The notes beneath the pieces were generated by a model. It was not told the DNA's origin and ran no database searches. It saw nothing but the letters and a program-made list of their open reading frames with translations. DNA of 64,000 bases from Escherichia coli (lineage in GTDB: Bacteria; Pseudomonadota; Gammaproteobacteria; Enterobacterales; Enterobacteriaceae), in assembly GCF_002854065.1 (NCBI RefSeq), contig NZ_CP024151.1, one strand, 5' to 3'. The position numbers and the translations under genes were made by a program. Numbering within the stretch: the first letter of the stretch is position 1; each line of letters opens with the position of its first letter. Positions 1 to 40,829 of this stretch are shown piece by piece.

Positions 1-549
1 CTTACCGATTGCTGCAGTGTAATAACCATGATTCTGAAGTAATTCAGACAGGAATGTTTCTTCCAGAGGGATACCATCCTGTGCATCAGAATTTGAATAT
101 ACACCGAAGCGAGCAGGAGCTCGCGCCGTCAGGATTGCGGCACGTGAAGGGCCAGAGACACCGTGTGCAACATAGCCGTTAGTGAATTTTACACCTTCGT
201 CCATCAGGGCCGCTAATGTTGGAGTGGATTTTTTTGCAGCTTCAATTGCTTTATCAATACCTATTTTGTATGTATCAACAACATTTCGGTTATCCATCGT
301 TTTAGGGTCAAATGAACTATCATCAAAAGGCAATTGTCCATACCCTAAATCATCCATTGTTAAAACAATGATATTTGGCTTACCTTTAGTGCTGTATTCC
401 GTCGGCGTGAAGTCCGCAAAGGCAACATTGGTTTTTGTTGCTTTGAGCTTAACATCATCTGCTGCATTTGCAGTACTCATCATCAGACCAGATGCTAATA
501 TAAGTGATATTGATGAGTTAAGCAGTTTTTTATTTAACTGATGTTCCAT
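1..549 (-). CDS. Sulfatase-family protein, N-terminal part (gene runs off the left window edge)
   Basis: Reverse-strand translation from ATG at 549: MEHQLNKKLLNSSISLILASGLMMSTANA (signal peptide) ... VAHGVSGPSRAAILTARAP, i.e. the S-x-P-S-R-x-x-x-L-T-x-R sulfatase signature (Ser-type). Not in the ORF track because it is truncated. Confidence 0.6.
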   Translation of the reverse strand, partial: MEHQLNKKLLNSSISLILASGLMMSTANAADDVKLKATKTNVAFADFTPTEYSTKGKPNIIVLTMDDLGYGQLPFDDSSFDPKTMDNRNVVDTYKIGIDKAIEAAKKSTPTLAALMDEGVKFTNGYVAHGVSGPSRAAILTARAPARFGVYSNSDAQDGIPLEETFLSELLQNHGYYTAAIGK

Positions 550-644
550 ATGGTATTCCTTCTGAGTTGCATCACGAACATTTATTAATAATAAAAGCCT
601 CTGATATAAATAAAAACTATGTAAATCGTTTAAATGGATACCTG

Positions 645-1781: not shown

Positions 1782-2334
1782 AAAAAAATCCCCTGTGCAC
1801 ATTTTTAGTATGGTTTTAAAAATTAAACTATGGCGAAAAAATTATCACCATGCAAATATGTAACAAAATATTTCTCGGTGATCTATGTTGTTGTTTTTAT
1901 TTGAGGTTGTATATTTTCTAGTGTATTTGACTTTTCTTTCTTAAGTGTTATTTCTCGACCTTTATCACAGAACCATCTCCCTGGATATCCCCATAACATT
2001 GCATGAAAAGCAAGTTTTACCAATCTTGATTTTCAGTGTTAAATAAGATTAATAACTGTAATTCTGCAAAAAAAAGAACACCATATGTAGTATGACTACG
2101 TATTCCACTCTGTTCGTTCACGGACTGGCATCGAAGTCTGAGGTGTACTGGCAATAGCGGATACAGTCATTTGTTCTTTTTTTAAGCATTCATCCGATGA
2201 TACTTTTCCTGAATGCTACCGGAGTGGTATTCCCCTGCCGTGATAGACTGGCCCCCTGAATCTCCAGACAACCAATATCACTTAAATAAGTGATAGTCTT
2301 AATACTAGTTTTTAGACTAGTCATTGGAGAGCAG

Positions 2335-2700
2335 ATGATTGATGTCTTAGGACCGGAGAAACGCAGACGGCGTACTACACAGGAAAAGATCGCTATTGTT
2401 CAGCAGAGTTTTGAACCGGGAATGACGGTCTCCCTTGTAGCCCGGCAACACGGTGTGGCAGCCAGCCAGCTATTTCTCTGGCGCAAGCAATACCAGGAGG
2501 GAAGTCTTACTGCTGTGGCCGCAGGAGAACAGGTCGTTCCTGCCTCTGAACTTGCTGCTGCCATGAAGCAGATTAAAGAACTCCAGCGCCTGCTCGGCAA
2601 AAAAACGATGGAAAATGAACTCCTTAAAGAAGCCGTTGAATATGGGCGTGCAAAAAAGTGGATAGCGCACGCGCCCTTATTGCCCGGGGATGGGGAGTAA
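2335..2700 (+). CDS. insC: IS2 transposase OrfA (InsC)
   Basis: Translation [56 protein letters not shown]... matches InsC of IS2; HTH N-terminal domain. Confidence 0.85.
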
Positions 2701-7250: not shown

Positions 7251-7779
7251 ATCTGGTCTGAACCAGATGGTTCCTCCATCAAAAGCGATGAGATGAAGAT
7301 CATTATCAAGAGTTTTGAGGGCTCTCCAAACACGAGTGTATGAACCTCCACTACAAACTGAAAGCTCTTTAACAGATAAGTTAACTTTGTTCGTATCAGG
7401 GATGTAGTGTGCGCACATTACTTGTACGAGGGAAACATAAAAACTAACCATCGACGCGCTGATTTTATTTTTACGTTTGCCATGCGCTATTGCAAGAAAA
7501 CCTCTGATGAAGATCAGATGCTTGAAGGAGTCAAAATGAGCCCTTTTCTGGAGAAGGCAGCAAAACGGGTGAGGATACTTGCTGGAATCAATGTGAAGAT
7601 CTGATTCAATCCCACCCGCTATTACTGAATGTGTTTCATGATTAGCCACACCATCCTGCACTTACAATGCACAGAAGGAGTGAGCACAGAAAGAAGTCTT
7701 GAACTTTTCCGGGCATATAACTATACTCCCCGCATAGCTGAATTGTTGGCTATGCGGTTTTATGGGGCCCCGGTAATCT

Positions 7780-7890
7780 TTCTAGTCGCCAAACTTGAAG
7801 AAGATTATCGGGGTTTTCGCTTTTCTGGCTCCTGTAAATCCACATCAGAACCAGTTCCCTGCCACCTTACGGCGTGGCCAGCCACAAAAT
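7780..7890 (+). ncRNA. copA: Putative CopA/CopT antisense copy-number control region
   Basis: Located in the repA leader just downstream of copB, opposite strand to repA; contains CGCCAA and GC-rich hairpin-capable sequence I associate with R1/R100 CopA/CopT. Exact ends and strand not verifiable without alignment. Confidence 0.35.
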
Positions 7891-8467: not shown

Positions 8468-8671
8468 CTTCCGTGCTTCGTAGGCCAGAGTTACCTGCAC
8501 CACTGTATTTCCTCTGTGAATATTCAGCTCACATAACCGTTCCCTGAATATCAGTGAAAAACACAACACCATGGCGCACACGGCGAGCAACCCGATAAGG
8601 GCATATTTCGTCATAAACTTTGACCTCTCTGCAAAGAAGAGGCTACAATCAGTAGTGTTAAGGTACTTCAT
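8468..8671 (-). CDS. srnB: Hok/Gef-family type I toxin homologue (SrnB-like)
   Basis: Translation MKYLNTTDCSLFFAERSKFMTKYALIGLLAVCAMVLCFSLIFRERLCELNIHRGNTVVQVTLAYEARK matches the SrnB sequence as I remember it; single TM helix plus conserved C-E-L motif. In this sequence the frame reads on to 8321 with no stop after ...EARK. Confidence 0.7.
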
Positions 8672-9619
8672 GCAGACCTCACGAGTTAATGGATTAACGA
8701 GTGGGGTCTTCGCATTTCTGGTACCTGCGTCTTGCCTGAACCAGAAAGGCTCAGACACCCGCCGCGATAATACCACATTCCCTGTTGCTGGCTATTACCC
8801 CCATTTGCCTGTTTTTGTTACAAAAACGCCGGGAGCGGGGGAAAACTTACTTTTTCCCGTTTCCGGGGGGGACAACTGAGCATTGCGAACGCGTCAGCTA
8901 CGATGTTCCGGTGATTGCTGATCAGCCCCTGTTGTATTCATAAACTAATTAACATTCATTCCGTCTGGTGCATAAATCTGCCCGTGAACATCTGCAGACA
9001 ATACCGACCATAAAAAAATAAATAATCCCAGTAGAATATATTTCCTCATATTATTATCCATAACAAATAAATGGCACCTGTACACCTGTATTTCAGGCAA
9101 TCCTGAATATTGCAGCGCACATTGAATAAGACGTTATTTCGTGACATTAATCACAAAATATAAAATCGCGACTTAATACGGAAAAAACTCTGTGCTACTC
9201 AGAACTGACTGGTCATACTGCCCGACCGGATATTAAAAAAGCAAATCTCATAAACTCCTTTCAGCCTTCTGACTCCTGGAGTAATGAAGGCTGCTTTTTC
9301 GTTACACCCTTCCCCGGCAGCGCCGGTAGCAGTGTTCAGCCCTTTTTCGGGCAAACTGCTGCCAGTCTGTCCGGGGCGCAACACAGGCAGCCCGTCGCCA
9401 TCCTTCTGCCGCTTCCATCCAGCGTCCACTGACCTCCAGAATAACGGCCCGGCTTCCGGCACGCTGCCAGCGCCAGACCTGACCGTTCCGTGAACTGTTT
9501 CTGAATCCATTCATCTTTATCACTCCTCTTTAACCCGTCAGTATTATGGTGTTAAATAATCTACTGAATTGGCTTCCTTTCGGGTACGGAAGTTTATTTC
9601 CTTTTAAGCCTTATTTCCC

Positions 9620-11028: not shown

Positions 11029-14000
11029 TCAGTCTCCGCCCAGGGTTTTCTCTTTCTGCAGGGCACGAACCATATCCCGCTCCATCTGCTGCAGTCGCTC
11101 CTGCAGCAGATTTTCCCGGGCAACATCCCGGACCGCTTCCCGCACCCGTTGTGATTCACGCAGCACACTCTCCGGCAGCGCGGCTTCCCGTTCAGATATG
11201 GCAGACCGGTCACGCTCCTGCCCGGCAATCTCCCTGACAGCCTGCTCTGTTTTGCCATCCGGCAGGTCAGGTTTGTTCTCTGCCATTTTACGGACAATTT
11301 CATCCGCACGGCGTTCCGTTTCACGGCGGATGGCCTCTTCAGCTTGCCGCTGTGCCAGTACCTCTGCCGTGACCGGTTCGCCATTTCCGGCTCCCGGCTG
11401 AACGCTGTTGTCCGGGATATCCCCCCACACGCGACCACCGGTGATGGTACCGGGATTCCACGGACGACCTTCACCGGCGATTCTTACCACCACACCGCTG
11501 TCAGGATTATCACGGGCAATCCGGACACCATCCTGCATATTATCAGCCAGCAGGCTCTCTCCGTTACGGCTGCCCTGCAGGGCCACGAACTGCGCATCCC
11601 CGCTGCCTTTCACCCGGCCTTCACCACTGAAGCCCCGCAGCCCGTTTCCGTCATCCGTGGTCAGCGGATTCAGCCAGATACCGGCGGACTTGCCGTTACG
11701 GTCAAAAGCCGGCAGTGCCACATACGGCTGCGGATATTTGCGCCCGGGTGCAATAAACCGTGCAGGATTGTCTCCCCCGGCAAGTCCCGCCTGACGGAGA
11801 ACGGCACGGCCGGCCGCCACGTCCCGCAGCTCCCGCGCCGTACTGAACAGCCGCTCTGCATTCATGACCTCCCGGTCCGATTTCGGCTCAAGCACATCGT
11901 GGGCAGTTCCTTTCTGTACGGCATTGTTAATGGCATCCGTCCAGCCCTGACGGTTATCGGTATACACCTGCACATGCTGCTTCATACGCGACAGGGCCAC
12001 GTAGGCTGACTCAAAGCCGGCCATCTGTTTCCGGCTGCCTTCCGTACCTTCAAGCGCGATGGCAAAGGTTTCACTTGCCCCCTGCGCACCGTGGGCGGTG
12101 ATGGCATAGGCCAGGTCAATATGTTGCTCTGCCCGCTCCTGACCGGGGCGAATCACCCGGGTCTGCTGTCCGTCCGACAGCGTGACACTGTCACCGGAAA
12201 CCGCTGTCACCGTCCAGACGCTGTTGGCCACATAACCGCGCTCCCGGTCACTCTTCGTGAAGCGCATCCGGTCACCGGTTCCCACCCGGATGGTGTCCGG
12301 GGTGTACAGTGTGACGCCTTCAGCCACCGCCTCCCGGGGCGAAATCAGCCGCGTGTTACCTTCAGCATCCTGCAGGGTTATCAGCCCGTCATCCCTGCTG
12401 ATACCGGCAATCCGGTGATACACATTATCCACCAGGGCAAGTGCGTCCCGATGTGTCTCCCAGGTGGAGAGACGACGCAGCTCCCCGTCGCGTATATTCG
12501 CTGTGTTCAGGACAGGCACCATGACCTGCTCTTTTCCCAGCTCACCGGCCTTTTCCCGTGCATCATGAATCATGCTGTTCAGCACGCGCCGGTCCTCATT
12601 CAGGTGCGTGACAATCAGCGTCTGCTCCCGTGCTTCCGGTGTTCTGCCGGTATAGTCGCGGACAATGGCTTCATACAGTGTCATGGGGACATCCGGGAAA
12701 GCCTCGCCTTTCAGCATCGCCTTCTGCTGCGCTTCTGCCAGTTTCGCTTCCTGGCTGTGACTGAACTCCATCACGGAGTGCTCCGGTGCCCATGCGCCCT
12801 CCAGACGTGGCACCTGAGACGGTTTCACACTCTCAAGCCCGGATAGTGCCCTTTCCACATCCCGGTTAATCAGGTTGTATACCGCCTCCCGCAGTTCCGG
12901 CGTCTGACGCACAATCTCCTTCATGATGGCCACATCGGCAGCACTGCGCGTCTGCTGGAGACGGAAAGGCTGACCGGGCGCGATGGCCTGCAGCTGGTCC
13001 GTGTCACCACTGGCCACGGCACGACCGCCACCGGCCGCAATCAGGGCGTATGCCCGTGCCATGTCGGTATTGCCCACCATTGAGCTCTCATCGAGCAGGA
13101 ACAGCGTGTTGCTGAAATCCGGCGTTTCTCCGCTGCGCTGCTGCAGCTGCGTGTCATGCAGAAAAGACGCCAATGTCTGCGCATCCACGCCGGCGCTGCG
13201 CATCTCCCCGACCGCACGGTGTGTGGGACCCAGCCCAACGACACGGGGACGCTCACTCTCCGGCAGCATGTTCACGGCTGACATCACCGCCCGGAACTGT
13301 GTGGTCTTACCCACACCGGCATAGCCCTGCACCACCGTGAAGCGGTCGGACGTTTCCAGTATCATGCGGGTGGCGGCGCGCTGTCCTGATGTCAGTTTCT
13401 CCATGAGTTCGCCAGGTACTCTCTCCATCAGCGGCGTGACCGCCTCCTTACCTTCGAGAATATGGCGAAGAATGCTCTTTTCTGCCTCATACGACGCACG
13501 GGAAACCAGCAGGCCTGTGCCATAGTCTTTTGCCACATCCACATACAGTAAATCACCCCGTTTTATCTGCGCATCGATTTCCCCTCCCAGTTCAGTAAAA
13601 CTGGTTCCTTCTGCAGCAAACGACTTCGCCTCTGTCAGCAGGTCCACCATGCTGAAGGCCAGGTTTTTACTTTCCAGCACAGGAAGGGCCAGATGAATGG
13701 CCTGCTGTGCCGGCGTGTGAAGCCCGGCTTTCTGCAGACTGATAGCGGTTTCCAGCAATGTCTCACCGGCACGCGCCTTTATCTGCTCAGAAACCACCGT
13801 AAAGGAGGGATGGCGGGCAAGTTTTTCCGCAGTACGGGTTTCATCCAGTGAGGAATACAGCCGGACATCACGACCGCTGCGGGCCAGACCGTTCAGGGTG
13901 GCGTTGTCCATTGCCATCTGTGTGACGGAGGCAAAAACCTTCGCACTGTCGCTGACGGAATGCCCGGGCGTTTCCACCCAGCCGCTCTCCAGCTTCAGTG

Positions 14001-16299
14001 CCGTGAACGGTGAATCAGCCACAGGCAGGGAGGCCGGTTCAGCCCGTCCCGGCACAACAACCGTCATCGCGTCCTCGCTGACGGATGCCACCTGCAGGAG
14101 GTCACCGCCGGAGACGCGGAGTCCGGGAATTTTCCCGGTCACCCTCAGACGCTCGCCGTCTGCCACCGGCATTTTTTCCGGCCGGAACAGCGACCAGCTG
14201 CTGTCCAGGGAGGAAATACGCACCACCTGCGTTTCACCCTGCGCATCCCGCAGGGTCAGGCTGTGACTCTGCGCCGTCACCCGGTCGATAACATAGCGGT
14301 CATGACTGCGTGTCTCCGGGTTCCACTGCTCCATCACCATCCCCGGACGGTACATATCCCGCAGATAACGGCTCCGGCTGTCCAGCCAGACCGGTGACAG
14401 TGCCGTCATGGTTACCTCCGGGTGTCCGAGCACGCCCTGTGTTTTCAGCTCACTGCGAATGGCCTGTGTCAGTATGGCCTGTTCCCGTACCCCGCTGACC
14501 TGTGCCACGCTCTCTTCTCCGGCTTTCACGCTGGCCGCAAAATCTCCTGCCAGCCGGGCATAGCGGACATTACGGTCCGGTTCACTGATGATGGTGGCCG
14601 GCCGCTGTTCTCCCCCCTGCCAGCGATATGTGTTCACCCCGGCATCTTTCATGGCCATCAGTGCACTGCCTGTACCGGTTCGCTGCCCGCTGTCGGTTAT
14701 CAGGACCTGTACGTTATGACGTGCAGCACCGTCCAGCAGGGTTAACGTCTCTTTCAGGGAGAGTTTTTCGCCCTGGTCAACGATAACAGTATTGCCCGGC
14801 GTGAAGGCCATGCCCTCCTGCAGCTGACGACGTCCGGTTATCAGCTCACCGGACAGCCGTTCATCCTGCTTCAGGTTCATCTGCGAGCGACGGTCAGCGG
14901 CGATAATCTGCACCTCCCGCCCCTGCTCCCGGGCCATCATGACCAGCTCCGCCACCCGCTCACGCTGCCCGGCTGCACCGCCCTGCCCGGACACAATAGC
15001 CAGCGACGGGCGATCCTGTGCCAGAACACTGACCGCATCGCTGTAACCGGCCGTCCGGGGGACACTTTTCTCCGGATGTACGGTCACCCGGTTCTGTTTC
15101 ATGATGTCACGACTGAGTGCCCGGACTGACAGCTCATCGAGCACATGAATCCCGGACGTGAACAGCCCCTTCTCACGATCGAGGGGGATAAGCTGCTCAC
15201 GGCTGATGGCCTCATCGATACCGGCGCGTGCCCGTTCAATCACACCATTTTCCGGCGGCAGTATGCCGACCGTTCTGGCCAGCACGTCCGTGTACGTAAA
15301 CTGCACTTTGCGTTCACTTAATCCGGCAATCGCCTGTGTCACCGCCTGCTGCACATCCGGCCCGTCCGGTGAAGCAGGCCCGGGCGCCTGCGTGCGGGTC
15401 TCCGCCCGTTGATCCGCCGCGTCACGATACGCCCGGATGTCGAACCCGGTTTCCCTCAGCGTCTGCATCCATTCAGCCATTCTGACTTCAGGATCGACGT
15501 GCTGTTTGGATTTTCGCGTATCCAGTGCCGCCACATCCCGGGATTTCAGCGAGGCATCTTCCCCGACGGCCTCCCGGATAGTCTGTGAGCGTCCGGAAAA
15601 GGCCTCCACCGGTACGCCCGGCATCTCCCACATACCGTGCTTACCCACCACTTCGGTTTCATAGCCCAGCGCCTCAACCTGCTCTTTCAGTTTTTCCCGG
15701 TAGAGCCTGCCAAAGGCAATCTGATTAGCGTACACATTCTCAATGAACCCCGTTTTCCCCACTTTGTCACTGCTCAGTGTCTTCCACTCACCGTTATGCT
15801 GCGTAACATTAGCCACCACCGCATGCGTGTGTAACTGTGGTTCCTGATCGCGACTGGTGTCGTGGTTAAACAGTGCCATCACCAGATTACCGGTCAGTAC
15901 CGTTTCTGACTGTCCGTCCGTCATCACCCGTGTGGAGGCCAGCGCCTCCACCTGACGAACAGCAAAGTCCACGGCCTGGTTATGTGCATCAATCAGGCGC
16001 TTATCGCCACCTAACATGGCCATCATGGAGACACTTTTGGGGGCGGAGAAGGTCAGGTCGTAGCCGGGACGATGCTTATTACTGCCATCCTGCATGCGGC
16101 TTAGATCCGCTCCGTCCGGCAGCCTTCCCTCCAGAAGACGGGTAAAAACATCCTTATCGACACTGCCCTGCAGTCCCAGCTGTTCAGCCCCCCTGCCGGC
16201 CCAGCGTTCTCCCATGCTGCCCAGTACATAGTAATTATCCTTGTCGGTATAATAGTTACCGGCACTTCCGGCCGATCTGACCTGCGCGATACTCATCAT
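11029..16299 (-). CDS. traI: TraI relaxase/helicase (MOBF)
   Basis: 1756 aa; N-terminal relaxase region ([24 protein letters not shown]...) and Walker A GYAGVGKT in the helicase domain; size and position classic for F-like TraI. Confidence 0.95.
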   Translation of the reverse strand: MMSIAQVRSAGSAGNYYTDKDNYYVLGSMGERWAGRGAEQLGLQGSVDKDVFTRLLEGRLPDGADLSRMQDGSNKHRPGYDLTFSAPKSVSMMAMLGGDKRLIDAHNQAVDFAVRQVEALASTRVMTDGQSETVLTGNLVMALFNHDTSRDQEPQLHTHAVVANVTQHNGEWKTLSSDKVGKTGFIENVYANQIAFGRLYREKLKEQVEALGYETEVVGKHGMWEMPGVPVEAFSGRSQTIREAVGEDASLKSRDVAALDTRKSKQHVDPEVRMAEWMQTLRETGFDIRAYRDAADQRAETRTQAPGPASPDGPDVQQAVTQAIAGLSERKVQFTYTDVLARTVGILPPENGVIERARAGIDEAISREQLIPLDREKGLFTSGIHVLDELSVRALSRDIMKQNRVTVHPEKSVPRTAGYSDAVSVLAQDRPSLAIVSGQGGAAGQRERVAELVMMAREQGREVQIIAADRRSQMNLKQDERLSGELITGRRQLQEGMAFTPGNTVIVDQGEKLSLKETLTLLDGAARHNVQVLITDSGQRTGTGSALMAMKDAGVNTYRWQGGEQRPATIISEPDRNVRYARLAGDFAASVKAGEESVAQVSGVREQAILTQAIRSELKTQGVLGHPEVTMTALSPVWLDSRSRYLRDMYRPGMVMEQWNPETRSHDRYVIDRVTAQSHSLTLRDAQGETQVVRISSLDSSWSLFRPEKMPVADGERLRVTGKIPGLRVSGGDLLQVASVSEDAMTVVVPGRAEPASLPVADSPFTALKLESGWVETPGHSVSDSAKVFASVTQMAMDNATLNGLARSGRDVRLYSSLDETRTAEKLARHPSFTVVSEQIKARAGETLLETAISLQKAGLHTPAQQAIHLALPVLESKNLAFSMVDLLTEAKSFAAEGTSFTELGGEIDAQIKRGDLLYVDVAKDYGTGLLVSRASYEAEKSILRHILEGKEAVTPLMERVPGELMEKLTSGQRAATRMILETSDRFTVVQGYAGVGKTTQFRAVMSAVNMLPESERPRVVGLGPTHRAVGEMRSAGVDAQTLASFLHDTQLQQRSGETPDFSNTLFLLDESSMVGNTDMARAYALIAAGGGRAVASGDTDQLQAIAPGQPFRLQQTRSAADVAIMKEIVRQTPELREAVYNLINRDVERALSGLESVKPSQVPRLEGAWAPEHSVMEFSHSQEAKLAEAQQKAMLKGEAFPDVPMTLYEAIVRDYTGRTPEAREQTLIVTHLNEDRRVLNSMIHDAREKAGELGKEQVMVPVLNTANIRDGELRRLSTWETHRDALALVDNVYHRIAGISRDDGLITLQDAEGNTRLISPREAVAEGVTLYTPDTIRVGTGDRMRFTKSDRERGYVANSVWTVTAVSGDSVTLSDGQQTRVIRPGQERAEQHIDLAYAITAHGAQGASETFAIALEGTEGSRKQMAGFESAYVALSRMKQHVQVYTDNRQGWTDAINNAVQKGTAHDVLEPKSDREVMNAERLFSTARELRDVAAGRAVLRQAGLAGGDNPARFIAPGRKYPQPYVALPAFDRNGKSAGIWLNPLTTDDGNGLRGFSGEGRVKGSGDAQFVALQGSRNGESLLADNMQDGVRIARDNPDSGVVVRIAGEGRPWNPGTITGGRVWGDIPDNSVQPGAGNGEPVTAEVLAQRQAEEAIRRETERRADEIVRKMAENKPDLPDGKTEQAVREIAGQERDRSAISEREAALPESVLRESQRVREAVRDVARENLLQERLQQMERDMVRALQKEKTLGGD

Positions 16300-18461
16300 C
16301 AGAAATCATCTCCCGGCTCAACATCCTCCCCACGCTCCCGGTGCACATTAATGTTCACCTCTTCACGACGCTGCATCTGCTGCTGGATGTCCGGATGATT
16401 TTCCTGTTGCCATGCCTCATAAGCGGCCATATCCACCACTTCACCGGATTCACTGATCCCGGGTGGCAGTTGCTGTTCCATCTCTTCTTCCGGTTTCATT
16501 TTCAGCTCCTGCTCGATCCCCCCTGCCGGAACATTCACACCTGAATCTGACTTCTTATCGTTTATGGCAGGAGACACCGGCTGTTGCGGCTGTTGCGGCT
16601 GTTCAGCCTGAGTCACGTCTTCTCCGGAAACAACTTCCGGCACATCCGGTTCGAAGAGGCTGGCCATCTGACGACCTTCTGCTTCCCTTGCGGCAAGTAC
16701 GGCACTCAGACGGTTCTCCATTTCCGGGTTGATGTCACGCGGAATAAACTCAGGGGCAACCTTCGGACGTGCCTGATATTTCAGTGAGAGTTTTACTGCC
16801 GGATACGGTCCGGGCAGGGTGACATAACAAGTCAGATCCGGCAGAGACTGAATGTCGGAATAACTGACCAGCGTCTGGCGCTCCATATCCTTACCGGTCG
16901 ATACCCCGTCACGTACCGGATCAGCACCGTAGGAATACTGCTCGCTGGCTTTCAGGTGCTCTTTCTCACCAATCTCACCGGCAGCGAACTCTGCAATCTT
17001 ATGGCTGGGAGAACGGAAAAAGGCACGAGTGTTCATGACGTCAAACAGCGTGGCAGCCGCTTTCTCACCGTAGATATCTTCCAGCTGGGCATAGGACTGG
17101 ATACCAAACACATAACAGCCACCGAACTTACGGGCTTCCGGCAGGATCTCCACCAGGTCCGGCAGTTTGTGTAACGTGGGTAGCTCATCACAGAAAAACC
17201 ACACACGACGGTTACGGTTTTCTCCCATTGCCAGCAGACCACGAATGGCAATGGACAGCCACATGGAGATCACCGGCTTCAGGGAGGCATGGGTGTCGGC
17301 ATTCGACGAGATAAACAGCCAGCCGTTTTTCTGATCTTCCCGGACACCCCGCATCCAGTCACGGATGGTAAAAGACTCACCGTTATGCTCAATCCCCTGC
17401 AGGTAACGGATGGCTTTCACGTAGTTGGTCAGCACAGCACGGATGGAAATCGCCGTTTTCTCAATTTTCTCTTCCACCAGGTTGGCCGCCGGTGAATTAC
17501 GCAGGAAGGTACGCAGTTTTTCGATTTTGATGGAAAGCAGTGTGTCCACCAGTTTGCTGTAGCTGCGGTTGGGGTCATTACGCATCAGGTACGCCGCTTC
17601 CGCAAAAATGGTACGTCCTGAACCCTGCCAGAACGGGTCCTCTTTTGTGCCCATCGGGATCAGAGTATTTGCGGTATTATCAAAATCCGGCTGTGTCAGG
17701 CACTCCTTCCACAAATCCCAGGCGGCACAACGGGCATCCAGCGGATTCAGGATTTTATCGATGGAGGGATCATAGTAACTTTTAACAAATTCCCCTGAAC
17801 GGTCATAAATCACCACCATATCTCCACGCTGACGGGCGTAGTTGGCCAGACGACGGATAACTTCCGACTTACCGGCCCCGACCGTGCCGTGCAGACAGAA
17901 GTTCTGGATTTCGGAATCCCGGATAATCGGCAGGTCGCCAATCCGTATATCGGAGTCCTTGCCGTCTTTTTTCAGCATCCGGGCAACGTCTTTCGGGTTC
18001 TCCGTCAGCTGACGACCACCTGTGACTTCATTTTCGCTCTGTTGTTTACCCTGACGCCCCAGAATCCAGGAGACAACAAAGAAGGTAATCAGGCAAATAA
18101 CCAGTGCCACAACTGTAGCCAGAACGAATGCGGACCATAGCTGCTCTCCGCACCAGATCATATATTTATCATGCAGTACCTGAGCAGCGTTCATCCGGAA
18201 GGTTTTGCCGTAATACTGGATCTCATAGACCGGCTGGGACTTGATTAAATCCCGCATGCCTTCCAGCGTGGTACACCACCAGTAAATACAGCCGTTCACA
18301 AACGTCTGCCAGCTTATTTTTACCCATAAAACCAGACCAACGAGTATCCAGAAAAAAATAAACAGGCAGTAAAGCATGATATTGGCGATCTGGCTGAACA
18401 TGCGGATACGCATGGACGCAATCTGACCGCCCTGGGTCATATCCTTTGCGTTAAAACTCAT
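16299..18461 (-). CDS. traD: TraD type IV coupling protein
   Basis: 720 aa; N-terminal TM segments, Walker [12 protein letters not shown]; C-terminal Q/P-rich repeat (QPQQPQQP) and acidic tail typical of F-like TraD. Confidence 0.95.
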
Positions 18462-18712
18462 GATGATATTCCGAAGAAAAAAGTCAGTCGGACTGATTAT
18501 TAATGATGAAAAGATTAATAACCGTTAAATTCCGGCTTCGCCGGCAACACTTCACGGTCGCACAAAGAATTTGCACAACCGCTCAGTGTTTTCATATTTA
18601 TTTCGGAAACGCCGGGGAGAAATAAAATTTATTTTATTTCTTTCCGGGGTTGGACAACGAGCAAAGCGAGGCGTCAGTCAGGAGGCCGGTCAGACCAGCC
18701 TCCGGAAGATAA

Positions 18713-19444
18713 TCAGAGAATATTTGCGATTGATTTGGCCAGCTGGTCTTCGAGAACAGGCTTCGCCTCTTCAAATTTCAGGTTAACCTTGTTCGCATTT
18801 GAGACCACACGGGTCTGGTATTTATGCTGGTTACCTGTTTCAGTACTGGTCTGAATTTTCGCACCTGATGTGCCCTGACGCAGGGCGGCAACATTATCCG
18901 TTGTCACCGTTGCCTTAGTACGCTCTGCAATCTGCACATCCGTGATCATGGTATAGTTCACATCTTCCACCATCGCATCTGCAGCCATACCCACCAGACC
19001 GGCAGCAAGGCCCACACCGAGTGTGGCACCGGCAGAACTGGAATTATATCCGGTGATACCGGCACCTAACGCTGCACCAACTGCTGCGCCCTCATAACCA
19101 CGGTTCAGCCATCCCTGAGACTCCCGCAGATCCATCTTATCGGCCTTCAGCACATTCGCCTGAATCCAGTAGTAGGCTTTATCCGGAGAAGTCACCACCT
19201 GATATCCTTTTGCTTTCACAGCATCAGCAATTTTGCCCTGCAGCCCACTCATGTCTTTATCAGACGTGTTTTTGATCTGCAGAAATACCGTGCGTTCGCT
19301 GGCGGGTTCAAGCCAGATGGTCTCACTCATCTGAGTCTTCACCTCAAGGTTACGCTTCTTGATTGCTGTGCTCATCGCACCACACCCTGAAAGGGCCAGA
19401 GTGGAACTGACCAGTGCAACCATCATCAATTTTTTTGTTTTCAT
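18713..19444 (-). CDS. traT: TraT surface-exclusion outer-membrane lipoprotein
   Basis: 243 aa; lipobox LALSGC; sequence closely matches F/R100 TraT. Confidence 0.93.
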
Positions 19445-19457
19445 CCAAAATATCCTT

Positions 19458-19967
19458 TTAACTAACAGACTCTTTTTTGAACAGTCCTATTACTGAGGCT
19501 ATAGCTGAGAGATTATAACGATTTATATCTATGGTATACACCAAGAAAAATAATATGAATGTAATCATTAGTGCAAAAACATATAAGATAGAATGCATAA
19601 ACGAAACCATAGAAAAAACAATCAAAAACAACAAAATATATGTCTTACTCTTAGAATACATAAAATTTATTATTTTTGAATCCTTTCTGAAACTATCAGG
19701 AATCGCAAGGTATAACATCATTCCATTTGTAATAGCCACAAAAAGCAGGAACCCCATCATTCCACTAGCACATATATCAAAGCCAACATCCCTGACATCA
19801 CTTTTAACCGATACTAAACGCAGAAAAGTTGGCCATAATAAAACCCATAAAAACACATAAGTTCCCGGCTTTATGACTTGTAATAATGATGGGATATTAA
19901 CACCCTCTACAGAGAGTACCTCCTTTAGTTTTTGCATCTCCATTCTTATATCATAGTGAGTGATCAT
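19458..19967 (-). CDS. traS: TraS entry-exclusion inner-membrane protein
   Basis: 169 aa, very hydrophobic, AT-rich gene located between traG and traT (conserved position of the variable traS). Confidence 0.75.
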
Positions 19968-22789
19968 AATGGCCCCTTCAATCGTTCTTTCTTATCATCC
20001 ACCATCTGTTTTAACGCATCTTCAGACGGTGTTGGCATTAATTTCTGTCGTTTATTTTCTTCATTATATCTGTTGTTTTGTTGAATTTCTTCCTGTTTGT
20101 GATTATTTTTTAACTCTGAATATTGTCTGTCTACAATATTTTCTTCGCCATGAATACTATTCTGAGTATCTCCGATATTCCCTTTATATTCTGTGACCAT
20201 ATTATCAACCTGATGTTTTACATCATTACGGATATTACTGTCCTGCGTTCTTTGATCAATAATGGCCTGATGCCCCTGATGGTCAGCAATAATATCCTGG
20301 CTGCCACCACCCGAAGGTACGCTCTCCATTCCTTTACCAATATCCCCACGGGATTCACGCCAGGCATTATCAACACCAGGCTGCACCTGTTCCTGAACAA
20401 AAGACCATGCCATCGCCCGACGGCGTTCTGCAATCTCCGGTGAACTGGTGTTTGTCAGAATAGCTTCGGCATCCTGCGGTGCGTGTTTCATCACATACTG
20501 TGCAAACTGTTGCGACAAATCTTCGCTCATCTGCCCACTCATGCTTTCAGTACGGGATGCCATTTCAGCATATTCATGGCTGCGGGTCATATTCGTCGTG
20601 TACTGGTCGTAACTCTGTTTCGCTGAGTTCAGGGCTGCAGACAACTGGTCCACGCGGGAATCGGCATTATTGTCAGTATGGCTGCCGGATTCACTGACTT
20701 TGCGACTGGTAAAGTAATCGCTGGCCTCTTTAAAGTCCTTACTGGCTTTAGCATCGATATCATGGCGAGCATCATGGGTAGCCCTGCTGCCACTACTTGC
20801 TGAATGTGAGTCATCATCCGTTGCATCCAGGCTCCCCTTAAATCCACCTCTGATGCCTACCCCACCACCAACACCAAGAATTTTAGGTTTAACCCCCCAT
20901 TCAGCATGAGCATCAGCATACATTCCACCAGATAGCCTGGTACTTGTTGATGCCAGTTCCTGAGTCGCCTGCTCATTACTGATATTATGCGCCTTCGCAT
21001 AGCTTTCCACTGCACTGCGCATACGGCTGGCCATCATGGAGTCCTGAGCACTCATCGTGCTGTCAGCACCACCGGTGACAGAATCACTGCTCCCCCGGTT
21101 AGAACCAAACTGACTGAGCGTGTTCCAGGCACTGGCAATACTGCTGCTGAACCCATGCAGGGCACTTTCTGCTCTGTTCGATGCTTCCCGGGCCATTTCC
21201 TGTTGTGCCGCCGCAATCTGACGCGTTGCATTGATGCCGACCGGTAACCGGGACATCGCTCCGCTTGCATCCATCACCATATTACCGTCACGGGTCTGTG
21301 TGGCGGTTGCGCCACTGCCGGTCTGGTACATCATCTGACCAAACGACGTGGTGCTGTTGGTGCTCCAGCTGAAGCCGTTAACATTCTCCGTCTGCATGTT
21401 GCCGTAGGAGTAATTACCGTCAACCACACTGCCTGCTGCACTGGCGGTCGGGCTGATAGCAGAGGAAGCGAAATGGCTGTACACACTGGAAAATCCTGCC
21501 CCGAGCCCCCTGACCATCATCCAGGATAATGGCGGGATCATCATGGAAAGATACCCGGCAGTGGAAGCCAGATCGGAGTATTTCAGCTGTATCTGTGAAA
21601 TTTCCGAGAGCACCACCGGTGCACCATTCTGCTTTGCATAAAATGTCATGGCGCTGTTCAGAATGGCGTACAACATTGGCCATGACTGCAACCACATCAG
21701 GGCAAACACATAGCCTTTCAGGACGGACAGCGTCAGTTTGTTGAAGACAGCCGCCAGTACCAGGAGCGGGAAAATACCGATGGCGATCCCCGTCAGGATG
21801 GTCTGCGTCATGGGCAGTGTCCGCATCGCCACATGACCGATGGAGACATGTGCCAGACGTTGCTTCTCCATCGATGATGTGGTGGCCAGATTCACCAGGC
21901 TGGCCGAATCACCATTACGTGCGGCATAACTGGTGATCCCCTCCTTCAGCGCATTGATGGTGACATTCTGGCGGATGATCTGGCTGGCTGATTTACTTGA
22001 GCCATAGAAGTAACTGTAACTGTCGCCAATCAGCGTACTGAACAACAGGTTCGGATCAGGGCGTCCACCAAATAGCTGCTGGGCATAATAATGCCATGTT
22101 TTTCCGCCACTCTGTGTGTCCAGATTCAGCTTGTCTTTCAGCGAAACCGACGCGTCCTTACAGGTCACGAAATTATTATTGCTGTCATAAACGCCCCGCA
22201 GCGGACTGGGGCGGGAAAAAATCAGCGTGTAAGGATCAGCGGAGGCCATCAGTTCCTCCAGCGTGTATTTGTGGTTCAGGTAAATATCCCCCATCACGCA
22301 GTTCTGCACATAATCCTGGAAAAGATTGGCGATTTCCGGATTACGGGACAAAAAGTCGGTGCTTTTTGATACCAGTTCTGCGCCAAACAGCATCCCCGTT
22401 TTGCTGTAGGTGACACTGTCCGGTTGCGTGAAGATCATCTCGTAACTGGCCACCATTGCATGCCCGATACGGGTCGTCAGTGAAAGTGGCATCGCCAGTC
22501 CGACCGGCACATTATCCACCCGGTGAACTTTGACCAGGTCACTGTTATCAATAATCTGCACCGATGTGCGGACATTAACCAGCAGGCTGATAAGCACAAA
22601 CACGGCCACCCAGCCCAGCAAATCCATCACGTTGTGCCGCTGTACCCACATTACGGCCACCGCGAGAACAGACAATGTGAGCGCAATTTTTTCAATGGAA
22701 TCCCACGTCCGGGTCCCCATAAAGGCGGCAATGGCATTCAGGTTATTCCGCAACCACTCACCACCGGCAATCACATAAACTTCATTCAC
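19964..22789 (-). CDS. traG: TraG (mating-pair stabilisation / entry-exclusion partner; VirB6-like N-terminal domain)
   Basis: 941 aa; multi-TM N-terminus and large periplasmic C-terminal domain; position after traH. Confidence 0.92.
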   Translation of the reverse strand: MNEVYVIAGGEWLRNNLNAIAAFMGTRTWDSIEKIALTLSVLAVAVMWVQRHNVMDLLGWVAVFVLISLLVNVRTSVQIIDNSDLVKVHRVDNVPVGLAMPLSLTTRIGHAMVASYEMIFTQPDSVTYSKTGMLFGAELVSKSTDFLSRNPEIANLFQDYVQNCVMGDIYLNHKYTLEELMASADPYTLIFSRPSPLRGVYDSNNNFVTCKDASVSLKDKLNLDTQSGGKTWHYYAQQLFGGRPDPNLLFSTLIGDSYSYFYGSSKSASQIIRQNVTINALKEGITSYAARNGDSASLVNLATTSSMEKQRLAHVSIGHVAMRTLPMTQTILTGIAIGIFPLLVLAAVFNKLTLSVLKGYVFALMWLQSWPMLYAILNSAMTFYAKQNGAPVVLSEISQIQLKYSDLASTAGYLSMMIPPLSWMMVRGLGAGFSSVYSHFASSAISPTASAAGSVVDGNYSYGNMQTENVNGFSWSTNSTTSFGQMMYQTGSGATATQTRDGNMVMDASGAMSRLPVGINATRQIAAAQQEMAREASNRAESALHGFSSSIASAWNTLSQFGSNRGSSDSVTGGADSTMSAQDSMMASRMRSAVESYAKAHNISNEQATQELASTSTRLSGGMYADAHAEWGVKPKILGVGGGVGIRGGFKGSLDATDDDSHSASSGSRATHDARHDIDAKASKDFKEASDYFTSRKVSESGSHTDNNADSRVDQLSAALNSAKQSYDQYTTNMTRSHEYAEMASRTESMSGQMSEDLSQQFAQYVMKHAPQDAEAILTNTSSPEIAERRRAMAWSFVQEQVQPGVDNAWRESRGDIGKGMESVPSGGGSQDIIADHQGHQAIIDQRTQDSNIRNDVKHQVDNMVTEYKGNIGDTQNSIHGEENIVDRQYSELKNNHKQEEIQQNNRYNEENKRQKLMPTPSEDALKQMVDDKKERLKGPL

Positions 22790-24162
22790 AGCGTGCTCCC
22801 TCCGAAGTGATAGTTGTTCTGGTAACGACTGAGCATGCGGGCGGAAAGCTGCTGACGCATGTAGCTCATCTGACGATCGACAACCAGCAGCGCATCCTGC
22901 TGTACCTGCACCTGTGACTGAAACGCCGCAATCTGCCGGGTGGCATCATTCATGTTGTCGTTAATATGTTCGATAACTGCTTCGTCATAATTTCCTGTGG
23001 CCACCATCGCCCGGGCCTGCTGTATCAGCTCCTGAATGTACTGCAGCAGGATGTCGTAACCGATATAGTCCGTCAGCTGGTAAATCATACTGTTGGAAAC
23101 ACCGAGCATTTGCGGGTCAACCAGGTATTTGAAGACGGGGATGGTGGTACTGGAAATAAAGCCTTTTTCCTTGTCATCCAGAGGCGTGTCACTGACCGCC
23201 TTGTTCTGAATGCTGGCCAGAAGTTTAGTAATCTGAGACTTCAGTGCATTATCCCGGCTGATGGTCACCGGTGTGTCTGCCACCACTTTCAGGCATTTAT
23301 CAGAATCGTTGCAGTGATAAATTTTTGCTGTGCCGCCTTCCATCATGGCCCGGATAATTGAGCGGTCAGTGGTTCTGGCTGATAGCGGTGTGATTTCGCC
23401 GTTGGGACCAAACACCAGTGAGCCGGTCAGCGTCATCACAAATTCTTTCAGCTCTTTGTTGCCATCAAACATTCTGTTTTTGGAAAGCGCATTCCACATG
23501 ATGTTGATGTTTTTGGTCACCCGCTCCTTATCCTTGTCGCTGGCTTTATCCCTGACGCTGTCAGATTTCCCGCCAACGGTACATCCCTGCCGGGAAGCCG
23601 CCCAGTCAGCAAAAATATTGCTCTCACCGGCAATGTCCTGACAGACTTTCTGCTGGGACACCTGCGTCCGGGGGAAAAGCCCGCCGATAATCCCCTGTGC
23701 AGCCTGGCAGGAACTGAGGTTCATACTGTTAATGTCGCTTGCCATTTTCTGCAGGAAGTCTTTTGCGGTTTTGATTTCCGGCACCGTTGTCTGCAGGGCA
23801 AGGTCAAAAAAGTAACCGGCAGCATTGCTCATAATCTGCTTAACAAAACGCTGCAGCTGCTCGCCATTAATAAAACTGAACGAACCGAGGTAGGCGTCGA
23901 TGCCGCCACATCCGGCATTGATATCCGGCAGCGTCATGGAAATCAGCTGAACATTTTTGACCTGAGTACGGGCATACAGGGAGCCACCGTAAGCATAACC
24001 GGCGGCCTGCCCCTGCCAGACGCCCGGCTGTGTGGTATTGGAGGCGAAGCCCAGCTTGTTAAAGAACTGATTCATGTCGCTGTTCACATCCGCTGACGCT
24101 GCGGGTGTGACCGTCAGTAAAGCAGCACAAAGAACCAGAAGAGGTTTAATGCGTGGCATCAT
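22786..24162 (-). CDS. traH: TraH pilus assembly protein
   Basis: 458 aa with signal peptide MMPRIKPLLVLCAALLTVTPAASA; F-like TraH family by sequence and synteny. Confidence 0.92.
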   Translation of the reverse strand: MMPRIKPLLVLCAALLTVTPAASADVNSDMNQFFNKLGFASNTTQPGVWQGQAAGYAYGGSLYARTQVKNVQLISMTLPDINAGCGGIDAYLGSFSFINGEQLQRFVKQIMSNAAGYFFDLALQTTVPEIKTAKDFLQKMASDINSMNLSSCQAAQGIIGGLFPRTQVSQQKVCQDIAGESNIFADWAASRQGCTVGGKSDSVRDKASDKDKERVTKNINIMWNALSKNRMFDGNKELKEFVMTLTGSLVFGPNGEITPLSARTTDRSIIRAMMEGGTAKIYHCNDSDKCLKVVADTPVTISRDNALKSQITKLLASIQNKAVSDTPLDDKEKGFISSTTIPVFKYLVDPQMLGVSNSMIYQLTDYIGYDILLQYIQELIQQARAMVATGNYDEAVIEHINDNMNDATRQIAAFQSQVQVQQDALLVVDRQMSYMRQQLSARMLSRYQNNYHFGGSTL

Positions 24163-24996: not shown

Positions 24997-25267
24997 GTCT
25001 GCCCTCCTGCTGCCCTTCCATCATGGCCTGTTGTCTTGCTTCCAGCGCCTCACGCTCTTCCCGGCTGACACGGGCAATCCATGCATCCAGCACCTGGTAT
25101 GCGCCGAACAGCACGAGAATGGCCGCAATCAACTCCGCCAGAAAAAAAGCCATCCAGGGTTTGCTGTAAACAAGACGGGCGACGATATGAAACCAGACAC
25201 CCAGGGAAAATACCCACATTCCCGTAATATCAAGCCGGGGTAAAGAGAATCTGCGTTTACTTATCAT
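24983..25267 (-). CDS. traQ: TraQ pilin chaperone
   Basis: 94 aa inner-membrane protein, MISKRRFSLPRLDITGMWVFSLGVWFHIVA...; position and size match F TraQ. Confidence 0.85.
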   Translation of the reverse strand: MISKRRFSLPRLDITGMWVFSLGVWFHIVARLVYSKPWMAFFLAELIAAILVLFGAYQVLDAWIARVSREEREALEARQQAMMEGQQEGRHVSH

Positions 25268-25385
25268 GTTAAACTCCGGTTATTATTTACATGAGAGTAT
25301 TTATGTCTGTAATATTCGCGTTTGTGTGATATTAATCAGATCAACCTCATTATTTTGTATGGTTTTTATTACCGTTTTATATGAC

Positions 25386-25733
25386 TTAGCCTGTCATAAG
25401 CCCCCTTATAAAAAACCACATCACTCCGGACCATACTGATGACAACATAATACAGATAAATATTCTTCTGAACCCGTCGAAGCTCGTAACATTCGGTAAT
25501 GAGCCAATAACCATTGGAACAACCATTGCTGCGCCCTGATTCATAATTGCACCACACAGAAACCAGAGACTGGCAGTCAGCACATATAAACACGCGATAT
25601 TAATAACAAGGAAAACCAGTGAGCTCAGGAGAAACATTTTCCTGTCATTACGCTCAGAAAAAAAATAACCGGCAATAATGACAAATATTAACAGAACAAC
25701 ACCTGTAAACAGTTTCAAATAATCTTCACTCAT
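25386..25733 (-). CDS. trbA: TrbA (membrane protein)
   Basis: 115 aa, multi-TM; position between traF and traQ. Confidence 0.75.
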   Translation of the reverse strand: MSEDYLKLFTGVVLLIFVIIAGYFFSERNDRKMFLLSSLVFLVINIACLYVLTASLWFLCGAIMNQGAAMVVPMVIGSLPNVTSFDGFRRIFICIMLSSVWSGVMWFFIRGLMTG

Positions 25734-25748
25734 AAATCAAATCCGCGA

Positions 25749-26492
25749 TTAAAAATTGGGTTTAAAATCTTCAGAAACGTTTAGGAATTGTTTTGCCAGG
25801 TCGTCCTGCGAAATAAAGCCGTATGATAACGGGCGAACACTGCCCTGTTTCGGGTCAACCAGCATCATGGCCGGGAAATATTTCACGCCGAGGCGCTGCG
25901 CCTGCCCCTGGTCAGTCCGGGAATCCGGCAACAGCGGATTAATCACACCATCCACGGAAACGGGAATAACACTCAGACCATAGGTATCCCTGAAGCCATT
26001 AATGACCTGCGCCAGCTGCCCGTCGATGGGGTCCTGCCCCCGGTAAAAGAACATGATGCCGTAGTGTTCAGCCAGTTTCGCAATGGCCTGTCGCTGCTGC
26101 ACCTGGTCTGCCGCCAGCTGGTTCCGGACCGTGCCGTTGTAATGGCTGTACTGCAGGTTATAGTCCAGTTCGGGATGCGCCAGCATGGATTTTTTGGCGC
26201 TCATGGTGAAAAGCCCGGCCTGCTGAGTCCAGTAATTCTGCAGCCGGAAATATTTCACAAAATTATCCACGCCGGGATACAGAATAGCTTCGTACAGCGC
26301 CCGCTTTGTTGCCGTCTGCAGTGCGGCCAGTTTCTGCATAATGTCCGGCTCCTGACGGGGGGCTGCAGGTACTGGTTTATTTTCTTTTTCCTTCGGATTT
26401 ATTTTCTCGTTATACCACTGCCAGCCTGCATCTTTTCCTGACGCCGGAAAAATAAAGCAGCAGAGTAACAGTGGCAGTAATGCTTTATTCAT
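25749..26492 (-). CDS. traF: TraF pilus assembly protein (thioredoxin-like, lacks CxxC)
   Basis: 247 aa from MNKALLPLLLCCFIFPASG (signal peptide); F-like TraF family. Track ORF extends 10 codons upstream. Confidence 0.9.
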   Translation of the reverse strand: MNKALLPLLLCCFIFPASGKDAGWQWYNEKINPKEKENKPVPAAPRQEPDIMQKLAALQTATKRALYEAILYPGVDNFVKYFRLQNYWTQQAGLFTMSAKKSMLAHPELDYNLQYSHYNGTVRNQLAADQVQQRQAIAKLAEHYGIMFFYRGQDPIDGQLAQVINGFRDTYGLSVIPVSVDGVINPLLPDSRTDQGQAQRLGVKYFPAMMLVDPKQGSVRPLSYGFISQDDLAKQFLNVSEDFKPNF

Positions 26493-39181: not shown

Positions 39182-39214
39182 ATGATTCCTCTGTTTAATA
39201 TTGATAGATAAAAA

Positions 39215-40797: not shown

Positions 40798-40829
40798 AAG
40801 ACAGTACCTTTTATATTCTGAAACAAGTG

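What the first reader, a model, noticed from the sequence alone, without database searches (positions are those of the whole stretch)
18713..19967. Entry/surface exclusion pair with a markedly AT-rich traS
traS (19458..19967) is strikingly AT-rich and hydrophobic compared with the flanking traG and traT, consistent with the known hypervariability of TraS and the TraG region that define exclusion specificity groups. The allele here will determine which F-like plasmids can enter a host carrying this plasmid.
Basis: partly seen in the sequence, partly recalled or inferred. Interest (0 to 1): 0.3.

Follow-up and report, generated by a model that had tools for sequence, protein, structure and literature searches.

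The report
Common F-plasmid entry-exclusion gene pair
This is the ordinary traS–traT exclusion gene pair of an F-like E. coli conjugative plasmid, which stops a cell from receiving a plasmid it already carries; this traS version is annotated in hundreds of sequenced plasmids, so the finding is correct but routine.

Summary
On the minus strand, traT is 18713-19444 and traS is 19458-19967, between traG (19964-22789) and traD. traS has 32.0% GC against about 50% for traT and traG, the lowest 510-bp stretch in the window (z = -2.95). It encodes a hydrophobic protein (GRAVY +0.84) with four likely membrane segments.

The AT-richness is not special to this allele:
- It continues through the last ~340 nt of traG.
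- F, R100 and pSLT traS and their traG tails are also AT-rich.

This TraS belongs to the F TraS family (NCBIfam NF010304, 254 bits, cutoff 173). It is only 28% identical to F TraS and unrelated to R100/pSLT TraS, so it is a third type. Homology with F and R100 breaks exactly at 19445/19446 and 20054/20055, which defines a 609-bp allelic cassette made of the traG tail plus traS.

The TraG region known to set specificity (aa 610-673, window 20771-20962) is also a private allele. It travels with this traS in about 670 of 678 plasmids.

- The DNA is at least 99% identical in 664 plasmid records.
- The traS family occurs in 886 of 5,426 complete E. coli genomes.

Which classical exclusion group it matches is unresolved. 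The TraT motif SSAGA hints at ColB-K98.

The parts
18713..19444 (-). traT, the surface-exclusion / complement-resistance outer-membrane lipoprotein (243 aa). It has the lipobox LSGC with Cys21, differs from F TraT by one residue (N136S), and so carries the motif SSAGA.
   Evidence: ORF. PF05818 at 279 bits and NF010291 at 545 bits (cutoff 445). 242 of 243 residues match F. Variable columns, motif. Literature on NSAGA versus SSAGA.
19458..19967 (-). traS, the entry-exclusion inner-membrane protein (169 aa). GC is 32%. Hydropathy suggests four membrane segments at about residues 36-53, 65-88, 109-128 and 130-152.
   Evidence: ORF. NF010304 at 254 bits (cutoff 173). BLASTP against F TraS gives 28% identity over 169 aa, E = 3e-21. 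Hydropathy. dN/dS about 0.25 against sister alleles.
19964..22789 (-). traG, the mating-pair stabilisation and pilus-assembly protein (941 aa, GTG start). It is the donor-side partner of TraS.
   Evidence: ORF. NF010295 at 1300 bits and PF07916. 88-89% identical to F and R100 TraG.
20771..20962 (-). Codons 610-673 of traG, the region shown for F and R100 to decide which TraS is recognised. Here it is a third allele. Its first half resembles R100 and its second half is private.
   Evidence: Alignment (identity to F 0.57/0.72 and to R100 0.90/0.55 in the two 40-aa bins). Role from the literature. Linked with this traS in 670 records and in 7 of 7 sampled plasmids.
19446..20054 (-). A 609-bp allelic cassette: the last 30 codons of traG, traS, and the 13-nt spacer before traT. 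DNA homology with F and R100 stops at both edges.
   Evidence: BLASTN breakpoints at 19445 and 20055 against both F and R100. About 2,900 PLSDB records match traG only up to 20055. No flanking repeats.
19400..20330 (.). The AT-rich block (GC 28-38% in 300-bp windows). It covers traS and the 3' end of traG.
   Evidence: Composition profile. Segment list. GC and GC3.
18608..18703 (-). Two stem-loops just after the traT stop (18681-18703 and 18608-18651). They are probably the terminator or RNA-stabilising structures of the exclusion transcript.
   Evidence: RNA fold of -41.4 kcal/mol, z = -4.6 against shuffles. Inverted repeat I1. The function is inferred.

Best explanation
The region is the exclusion module of an F-like (MOBF/MPF-F, IncF) E. 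coli conjugative plasmid.

TraS sits in the inner membrane of a cell that already holds the plasmid. When a donor with the matching TraG (periplasmic region aa 610-673) forms a mating pair, TraS blocks DNA entry. TraT, an outer-membrane lipoprotein, reduces mating-pair formation at an earlier step.

The window carries a common third TraS/TraG specificity pair. It belongs to the F TraS protein family, is far from F itself, and is unrelated to the R100/pSLT type. The pair is inherited as a unit. A 609-bp cassette (traG tail plus traS) and the traG 610-673 allele lie about 800 bp apart across conserved DNA, yet they stay together.

The low GC is a shared, old property of this slot in all F-like plasmids. 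About 40% of the deficit comes from the hydrophobic amino-acid content. The rest comes from AT-biased synonymous sites.

Shown here: gene identity, allele type, cassette edges, linkage and prevalence. Inferred from F and R100 experiments: the exclusion function and the specificity of this allele.
For: - Family scores are above curated cutoffs for TraS, TraT and TraG.
- Gene order is traH-traG-traS-traT-traD-traI, as in F and R100.
- TraS is 28% identical to F TraS (E = 3e-21) and has no match to R100 or pSLT TraS. F TraS hits the same model, NF010304.
- Cassette breakpoints are 19445/19446 and 20054/20055.
- TraG 610-673 is a third allele.
- Linkage: 670 records carry both parts, against 678 with traS at 95% or better. 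The association among TraS subtype, TraG allele and TraT motif is perfect in 13 plasmids.
- traS dN/dS is about 0.25 with dS about 0.6 against sister alleles, which indicates a functional and old gene.
- GC is 32.0% observed against 44.5% expected from amino-acid content. The same pattern holds in F and R100 traS and in the traG tails.
- The mechanism is taken from the literature.
Against: - No experiment on this allele was found in the searchable literature. Its exclusion index and cross-specificity are unknown.
- A direct TraS-TraG complex has never been detected, even for F (PMC7555446).
- The linkage could partly reflect clonal descent rather than selection for matched pairs.
- Promoter-like sites in the AT-rich block are no more frequent than in shuffled sequence: 5 found, 5.1 expected.
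Confidence: 0.9

Rival explanations
1. The AT-rich stretch is a recent foreign insertion, a gene captured from a low-GC organism, and not a native tra gene. It only happens to sit between traG and traT.
For: GC is 32% against 52% for the window, and GC3 is 32%. Synonymous sites are therefore AT-biased beyond what the protein composition explains. DNA homology with F and R100 ends sharply at both edges.
Against: - The protein is a full-length homologue of F TraS and reaches the curated TraS model.
- The same slot is AT-rich in F, R100 and pSLT.
- There are no flanking repeats or mobile-element genes.
- dS of about 0.6 among sister alleles shows old lineages.
- The AT-rich block extends into traG sequence that is conserved with F and R100.
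Confidence: 0.04
2. Exclusion specificity of this module is set mainly by TraT. Its SSAGA motif lies in the classical five-residue 'specificity region'. TraS would play only a minor part.
For: The only difference from F TraT is N136S, inside the motif reported by Harrison 1992. SSAGA occurs with this traS type in 7 of 7 sampled plasmids and in none of 6 sister-type plasmids.
Against: A 2025 preprint tested NSAGA, NSAGG and SSAGA in F TraT and found the same exclusion index. It also reports that F and R100 TraT are identical in sequence (10.1101/2025.05.27.656304; confirmed for the mature proteins here). TraS contributes far more to exclusion than TraT in F: the exclusion index is 3 without traS and 28 without traT, against 474 for wild type (PMC12445648).
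Confidence: 0.05
3. The AT-rich block is kept because it works as a regulatory region. It would provide internal promoters or H-NS binding sites that let traS and traT be expressed apart from the main tra promoter. The coding content would be secondary to this.
For: - AT bias at synonymous sites is shared by unrelated traS families and by the traG tail.
- Promoter and terminator activities around F traS-traT are reported in the literature (Jalajakumari 1987, cited).
- Promoter-like hexamers lie at 20133-20102 and 19577-19550 on the minus strand.
Against: The number of promoter-like sites equals the shuffle expectation. No RNA family lies in the region. This reading complements the main explanation rather than replacing it.
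Confidence: 0.25

Closest known systems
F plasmid TraS/TraG entry exclusion (classical group SfxI; NC_002483)
   Same: Same protein family (NF010304). Same gene order, and similar size (169 aa against 173 aa). Shared N-terminus MIT..., shared IPSLxQxxKPG and DIxRY motifs, a hydrophobic four-segment profile, and an AT-rich gene.
   Different: Only 25-29% amino-acid identity. TraG aa 610-673 differs (0.57-0.72 identity per 40-aa bin), and so does the TraG tail. The traS start overlaps the traG stop here, whereas F has a 32-nt gap.
R100 / pSLT TraS (classical group SfxIV; NC_002134, NC_003277)
   Same: Same position between traG and traT, similar size, hydrophobic and AT-rich (37-39% GC). It pairs with a private TraG 610-673 allele.
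   Different: No detectable sequence similarity to the window TraS. No NCBIfam model exists, and the gene is annotated 'hypothetical protein' in RefSeq R100.
Identical or near-identical alleles in sequenced plasmids (pPM4-5-103k NZ_CP096835, pEC_B24 NC_014382, pO111_3 NC_013366, Salmonella p12-4374_62)
   Same: traS DNA is 99.8-100% identical. The TraG 606-680 sequence is the same, and so is TraT (WP_000850424.1, SSAGA). All are annotated as TraS by PGAP.
   Different: None of substance. The window is essentially the same plasmid backbone as pPM4-5-103k.
Sister alleles of the 169-aa TraS subfamily (pAR-0424-1 type, 74.6%; pRHB14-C14_2 type, 78%)
   Same: Same length, same ATGA overlap with traG, and the same TraG tail ending in RLKGPL.
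   Different: 22-25% of TraS residues differ, mostly in residues 89-152. Each has its own TraG 606-680 allele, and TraT carries NSAGA.
ColB-K98 (classical group SfxII)
   Same: The TraT motif SSAGA is reported for ColB-K98 and pED208, whereas F, R100, R6-5 and R1 carry NSAGA. The window has SSAGA.

Membership tests
TraS entry-exclusion protein, F type (NCBIfam NF010304 / PRK13741) | Sequence reaches the curated equivalog score | tested here: met
   254.2 bits against a cutoff of 173, covering residues 1-168 of 169. F TraS scores 221 on the same model.
TraS entry-exclusion protein, F type (NCBIfam NF010304 / PRK13741) | Encoded between traG and traT in an F-type tra operon | tested here: met
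   Gene order is traH-traG-traS-traT-traD-traI on the minus strand. The order is the same in F.
TraS entry-exclusion protein, F type (NCBIfam NF010304 / PRK13741) | Small, very hydrophobic inner-membrane protein with 3-4 membrane segments and one hydrophilic N-terminal stretch | tested here: met
   GRAVY is +0.84. Hydrophobic runs lie at about 36-53, 65-88, 109-128 and 130-152, and the N-terminal 35 residues are polar. This rests on hydropathy only, with no topology experiment.
TraS entry-exclusion protein, F type (NCBIfam NF010304 / PRK13741) | Expression in a recipient lowers entry of the cognate plasmid, specifically through the donor TraG | not testable with these tools
   This needs mating assays. 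It is known only for F and R100.
TraT surface-exclusion lipoprotein (PF05818 / NF010291) | Family score above cutoff and a lipoprotein signal peptide with a lipobox cysteine | tested here: met
   279 bits on PF05818 and 545 bits on NF010291 (cutoff 445). The N-terminus [21 protein letters not shown] carries the lipobox LSGC.
F exclusion specificity group (SfxI) | TraS and TraG 610-673 match those of F | tested here: not met
   TraS is 25-29% identical to F. TraG identity is 0.57-0.72 in the variable bins.
R100 exclusion specificity group (SfxIV) | TraS and TraG 610-673 match those of R100 | tested here: not met
   No significant TraS similarity (best BLASTP E = 0.92). The second half of the TraG variable region is 0.55 identical.
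R1 (SfxIII) and ColB-K98 (SfxII) exclusion groups | TraS and TraG 610-673 match those of the type plasmid | not tested
   R1 (KY749247) and pED208 (AF411480) are absent from the collections, and no ColB-K98 traS was found. The only indirect clue is the TraT motif: SSAGA as reported for ColB-K98, not the NSAGA of R1.

The most novel reading that the evidence does not exclude
This TraS/TraG pair and its two sister pairs may be entry-exclusion specificity groups that were never typed experimentally. Together with the F and R100 types that makes at least five sequence types in E. coli, against four classical Sfx groups. The natural near-chimeras could pinpoint the TraS residues that read TraG. For example, the pAR-0424-1 and pRHB14-C14_2 TraS proteins are 89% identical but pair with very different TraG 606-680 alleles. 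Twelve of their 18 differences fall in residues 109-145.
Probability: 0.4. Interest if true: 0.3.

Novelty: already known. Interest (0 to 1): 0.1.

Why it matters
It matters little as a discovery, because the gene pair, its role and its variability are textbook. This exact allele is already annotated in hundreds of plasmids.

There is modest practical value. The allele marks one of the most common exclusion types among E. coli IncF plasmids (about 12% of the 5,426 complete E. coli genomes searched). Knowing the TraS/TraG type helps predict which resistance or virulence F-like plasmids can enter a strain that already carries one.

The tight three-way association of TraS subtype, TraG 606-680 allele and TraT motif gives a ready set of natural variants. 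These could be used to map how TraS recognises TraG, which is still unknown.

Tried and rejected
- Reference sequences: the F accession AP001918, R1 (KY749247) and pED208 (AF411480) are not in the collections. F was retrieved instead as NC_002483. I could not compare the allele with R1 or pED208.
- Literature: the Cox & Schildbach R1 paper is not held. Searches for a TraS typing scheme or a ColB-K98 traS sequence found none. The last of these was mostly off-target 'trastuzumab' hits.
- Cluster look-ups for plasmid names on the TraS and TraT proteins returned only generic PGAP names.
- Pfam has no TraS model, so there were 0 hits. Only NCBIfam recognises it.
- The promoter scan of 18300-20500 was no better than shuffles. 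Rfam found nothing inside 18713-19967.
- The repeat search found no cassette-flanking repeats. I therefore rejected insertion by a mobile element in favour of allelic replacement by homologous recombination.
- Gene-wide dN/dS gave no sign of positive selection (about 0.25). I therefore do not claim diversifying selection.
- I did not run structure prediction or the large protein-database searches, because they could not change the verdict.

Full report
**Observation**

The minus strand of the window carries the distal part of an F-type transfer operon:
- traH, 22786-24162
- traG, 19964-22789 (941 aa)
- traS, 19458-19967 (169 aa)
- traT, 18713-19444 (243 aa)
- traD, 16299-18461
- traI, 11029-16299

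GC is 32.0% for traS, 50.4% for traT, 50.6% for traG and 52.4% for the window. Among all 510-bp windows, traS lies in the lowest-GC stretch (minimum 31.4%, starting at 19421). For traS itself z = -2.95, and 0.13% of windows are as low. TraS is strongly hydrophobic: GRAVY is +0.84, against -0.16 for TraT and -0.33 for TraG.

One detail needs correcting. The AT-rich block does not stop at the traS boundary. It runs from about 19400 to about 20330 and includes the last ~340 nt of traG (GC 36%, GC3 24%).

**Identity**

- TraS has no Pfam model. It reaches the curated NCBIfam equivalog NF010304, 'conjugal transfer entry exclusion protein TraS', at 254 bits (cutoff 173) over its whole length.
- TraT reaches PF05818 and NF010291 (545 bits, cutoff 445).
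- TraG reaches NF010295 and PF07916.
- The TraT N-terminus ends in the lipobox LSGC.
- Hydropathy suggests four membrane segments in TraS, at about 36-53, 65-88, 109-128 and 130-152. The loop at 89-108 is lysine/arginine-rich and is probably cytoplasmic. That assignment is my inference from the positive-inside rule.

**Which allele**

I took F (NC_002483), R100 (NC_002134) and pSLT (NC_003277) from the plasmid collection. The window TraS is 25-29% identical to F TraS. BLASTP gives 28% over 169 aa, E = 3e-21. It shows no significant similarity to R100 or pSLT TraS, which are 65% identical to each other. F TraS hits the same NCBIfam model (221 bits). R100 TraS hits nothing and is annotated 'hypothetical protein' in RefSeq.

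Two unrelated protein families therefore occupy the traS slot. The window carries a distant member of the F family.

TraT, by contrast, is almost invariant: 242 of 243 residues match F and 241 of 243 match R100.

**Cassette anatomy**

BLASTN of the region against F and R100 loses homology at the same two points in both comparisons, window 19445/19446 and 20054/20055. The first point is one base upstream of the traT ATG. The second is 30 codons before the traG stop.

The replaceable unit is therefore 609 bp: the TraG C-terminal tail, traS, and the 13-nt spacer. About 2,900 further plasmid records match the traG part only as far as 20055. There are no flanking repeats or mobile-element genes. 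Alleles are probably exchanged by homologous recombination in the conserved flanks.

In this allele family the traS ATG overlaps the traG stop (ATGA). F and R100 have gaps of 32 and 15 nt.

**The donor-side partner**

For F and R100, TraG residues 610-673 decide which TraS excludes the donor (Audette 2007, as summarised in PMC9797247 and PMC7555446). In the window this stretch (20771-20962) is a third allele. It is R100-like in its first half and private in its second. The rest of TraG is 93-100% identical per 40-residue bin across positions 441-880.

I tested linkage with a chimeric query, TraG aa 606-680 joined to traS. It found 670 plasmid records carrying both parts, 675 of them at 99% identity or better. 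That compares with 678 records carrying traS at 95% or better. No class with only one part at high identity appeared in an evenly spaced sample of the ranking.

In 13 plasmids examined directly, the three TraS subtypes of the 169-aa family each pair with one private TraG 606-680 sequence: 7 of 7, 3 of 3 and 3 of 3. This fits matched receptor-ligand pairs, although clonal descent contributes an unknown share.

**Why AT-rich**

I re-encoded each protein with the codon usage of the surrounding tra genes. This predicts 44.5% GC for the window traS, against 32.0% observed. About 40% of the deficit therefore comes from the Leu/Ile/Val/Phe/Met-rich composition. The rest comes from AT-biased synonymous sites.

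The same gap between observed and expected GC appears elsewhere:

| Sequence | Observed GC | Expected GC |
|---|---|---|
| F traS | 34.7% | 47.3% |
| R100 traS | 37.0% | 48.9% |
| Window traG tail | 36.0% | 47.1% |
| F traG tail | 38.6% | 49.1% |
| R100 traG tail | 40.1% | 49.2% |

pSLT traS has 38.6% GC. Low GC is thus a property of the locus in all F-like plasmids, not a signature of this allele.

Between the window allele and its sister alleles, traS has dS of about 0.6 and dN/dS of about 0.25. traT has dS of 0.02-0.05. These are old allelic lineages under purifying selection, set in recombining flanks. A regulatory role for the AT-rich DNA (internal promoters, H-NS) is plausible from older F literature. 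It is not supported by the consensus scan, which found 5 sites against 5.1 expected.

**How common**

- The traS DNA is 100% identical in four PLSDB plasmids and at least 99% identical in 664.
- The exact protein occurs on at least 1,000 contigs.
- The traS family is present in 886 of 5,426 complete E. coli genomes, and 675 records are at 95% identity or better.
- For comparison, F-type traS matches 556 plasmid records and R100-type matches 2,161, of which 1,045 are full-length.
- The window itself is essentially plasmid pPM4-5-103k (NZ_CP096835, IncFIB/FIC), where the gene is already annotated traS.

**TraT detail**

The single difference from F TraT is N136S (N137S in the numbering of the cited preprint). 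It turns the classical 'specificity' motif NSAGA into SSAGA. A 2025 preprint reports NSAGA in F, R100, R6-5 and R1, and SSAGA in ColB-K98 and pED208. It also shows that these variants gave the same exclusion index in F TraT (10.1101/2025.05.27.656304).

SSAGA accompanied the window traS type in 7 of 7 plasmids and none of 6 sister-type plasmids. This is a lead that the module may be the ColB-K98 (SfxII) type. It rests on one residue. I could not obtain R1, ColB-K98 or pED208 sequences to test it.

**Mechanism**

The mechanism is inferred from F and R100. A resident plasmid expresses TraS in the inner membrane and TraT in the outer membrane. TraT lowers mating-pair formation. If a pair still forms, TraS recognises the periplasmic 610-673 loop of the donor's TraG and blocks DNA entry.

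In F, loss of traS drops the exclusion index from 474 to 3, and loss of traT drops it to 28 (PMC12445648). By analogy, this plasmid should exclude donors with the same TraG allele and admit F-type and R100-type donors.

Differences between the sister TraS alleles concentrate in residues 89-152, the loop 2 and TM3-TM4 region. The two termini are conserved. That is where I would look for the specificity determinants.

**Verdict**

The object is a well-known and very common allele. Novelty is 'already known' and interest is low.

Noticed in passing
L005:712-4043 and L006:712-4043 (compared with window 19458-20974): The pAR-0424-1 and pRHB14-C14_2 TraS proteins are 89% identical, yet their TraG 606-680 regions are very different (dN 0.31, dS 1.1). 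Twelve of the 18 TraS differences lie in residues 109-145. This is natural material for mapping TraS-TraG recognition.
   Followed up: partly
L002:23995-24480 (R100) and L008:32680-33174 (pSLT): The R100/pSLT type of TraS is unrelated in sequence to the F/window type. It has no NCBIfam or Pfam model and is annotated 'hypothetical protein' in RefSeq R100, although it is the most frequent traS type in the plasmid collection (2,161 records).
   Followed up: partly
window 19531-19860 (+ strand): A 109-aa ORF (stop-free run of 113 codons) lies antisense to traS despite the AT-rich sequence. A run of 104 codons persists in the sister alleles. It is probably a by-product of the sense codon pattern.
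   Followed up: partly
window 18608-18703: Two stable stem-loops lie directly after the traT stop codon (RNA fold z = -4.6 against shuffles). They are likely terminator or stabiliser structures. The simple terminator scan did not call them because they lack a T-run.
   Followed up: partly
window 18462-18712: The traT-traD spacer is 251 bp, with no gene, as in F. R100 and the pAR-0424-1-type plasmids carry an extra 245-aa ORF of unknown function there.
   Followed up: no
window 7734-7822, 8602-8760, 9222-9405, 13374-13450, 21985-22070, 40217-40326, 44323-44499, 51722-51824: Rfam gathering-level matches elsewhere on the plasmid: CopA, two sok antitoxin RNAs, AS-pc02, AS-traI, AS-traG (antisense inside traG), FinP with the traJ 5' UTR, and AS-pc01.
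   Followed up: no
window 131-2390, 25201-25840, 39101-41250, 61091-62000: These are other stretches where 510-bp windows fall below 38% GC. The 39-41 kb stretch covers the traJ / FinP region.
   Followed up: no
E. coli genome search with window 19458-19967: Some complete E. coli genomes hold up to three places matching this traS family, and three places are chromosomal. Co-resident plasmids with the same exclusion type would be unexpected if exclusion were tight.
   Followed up: no
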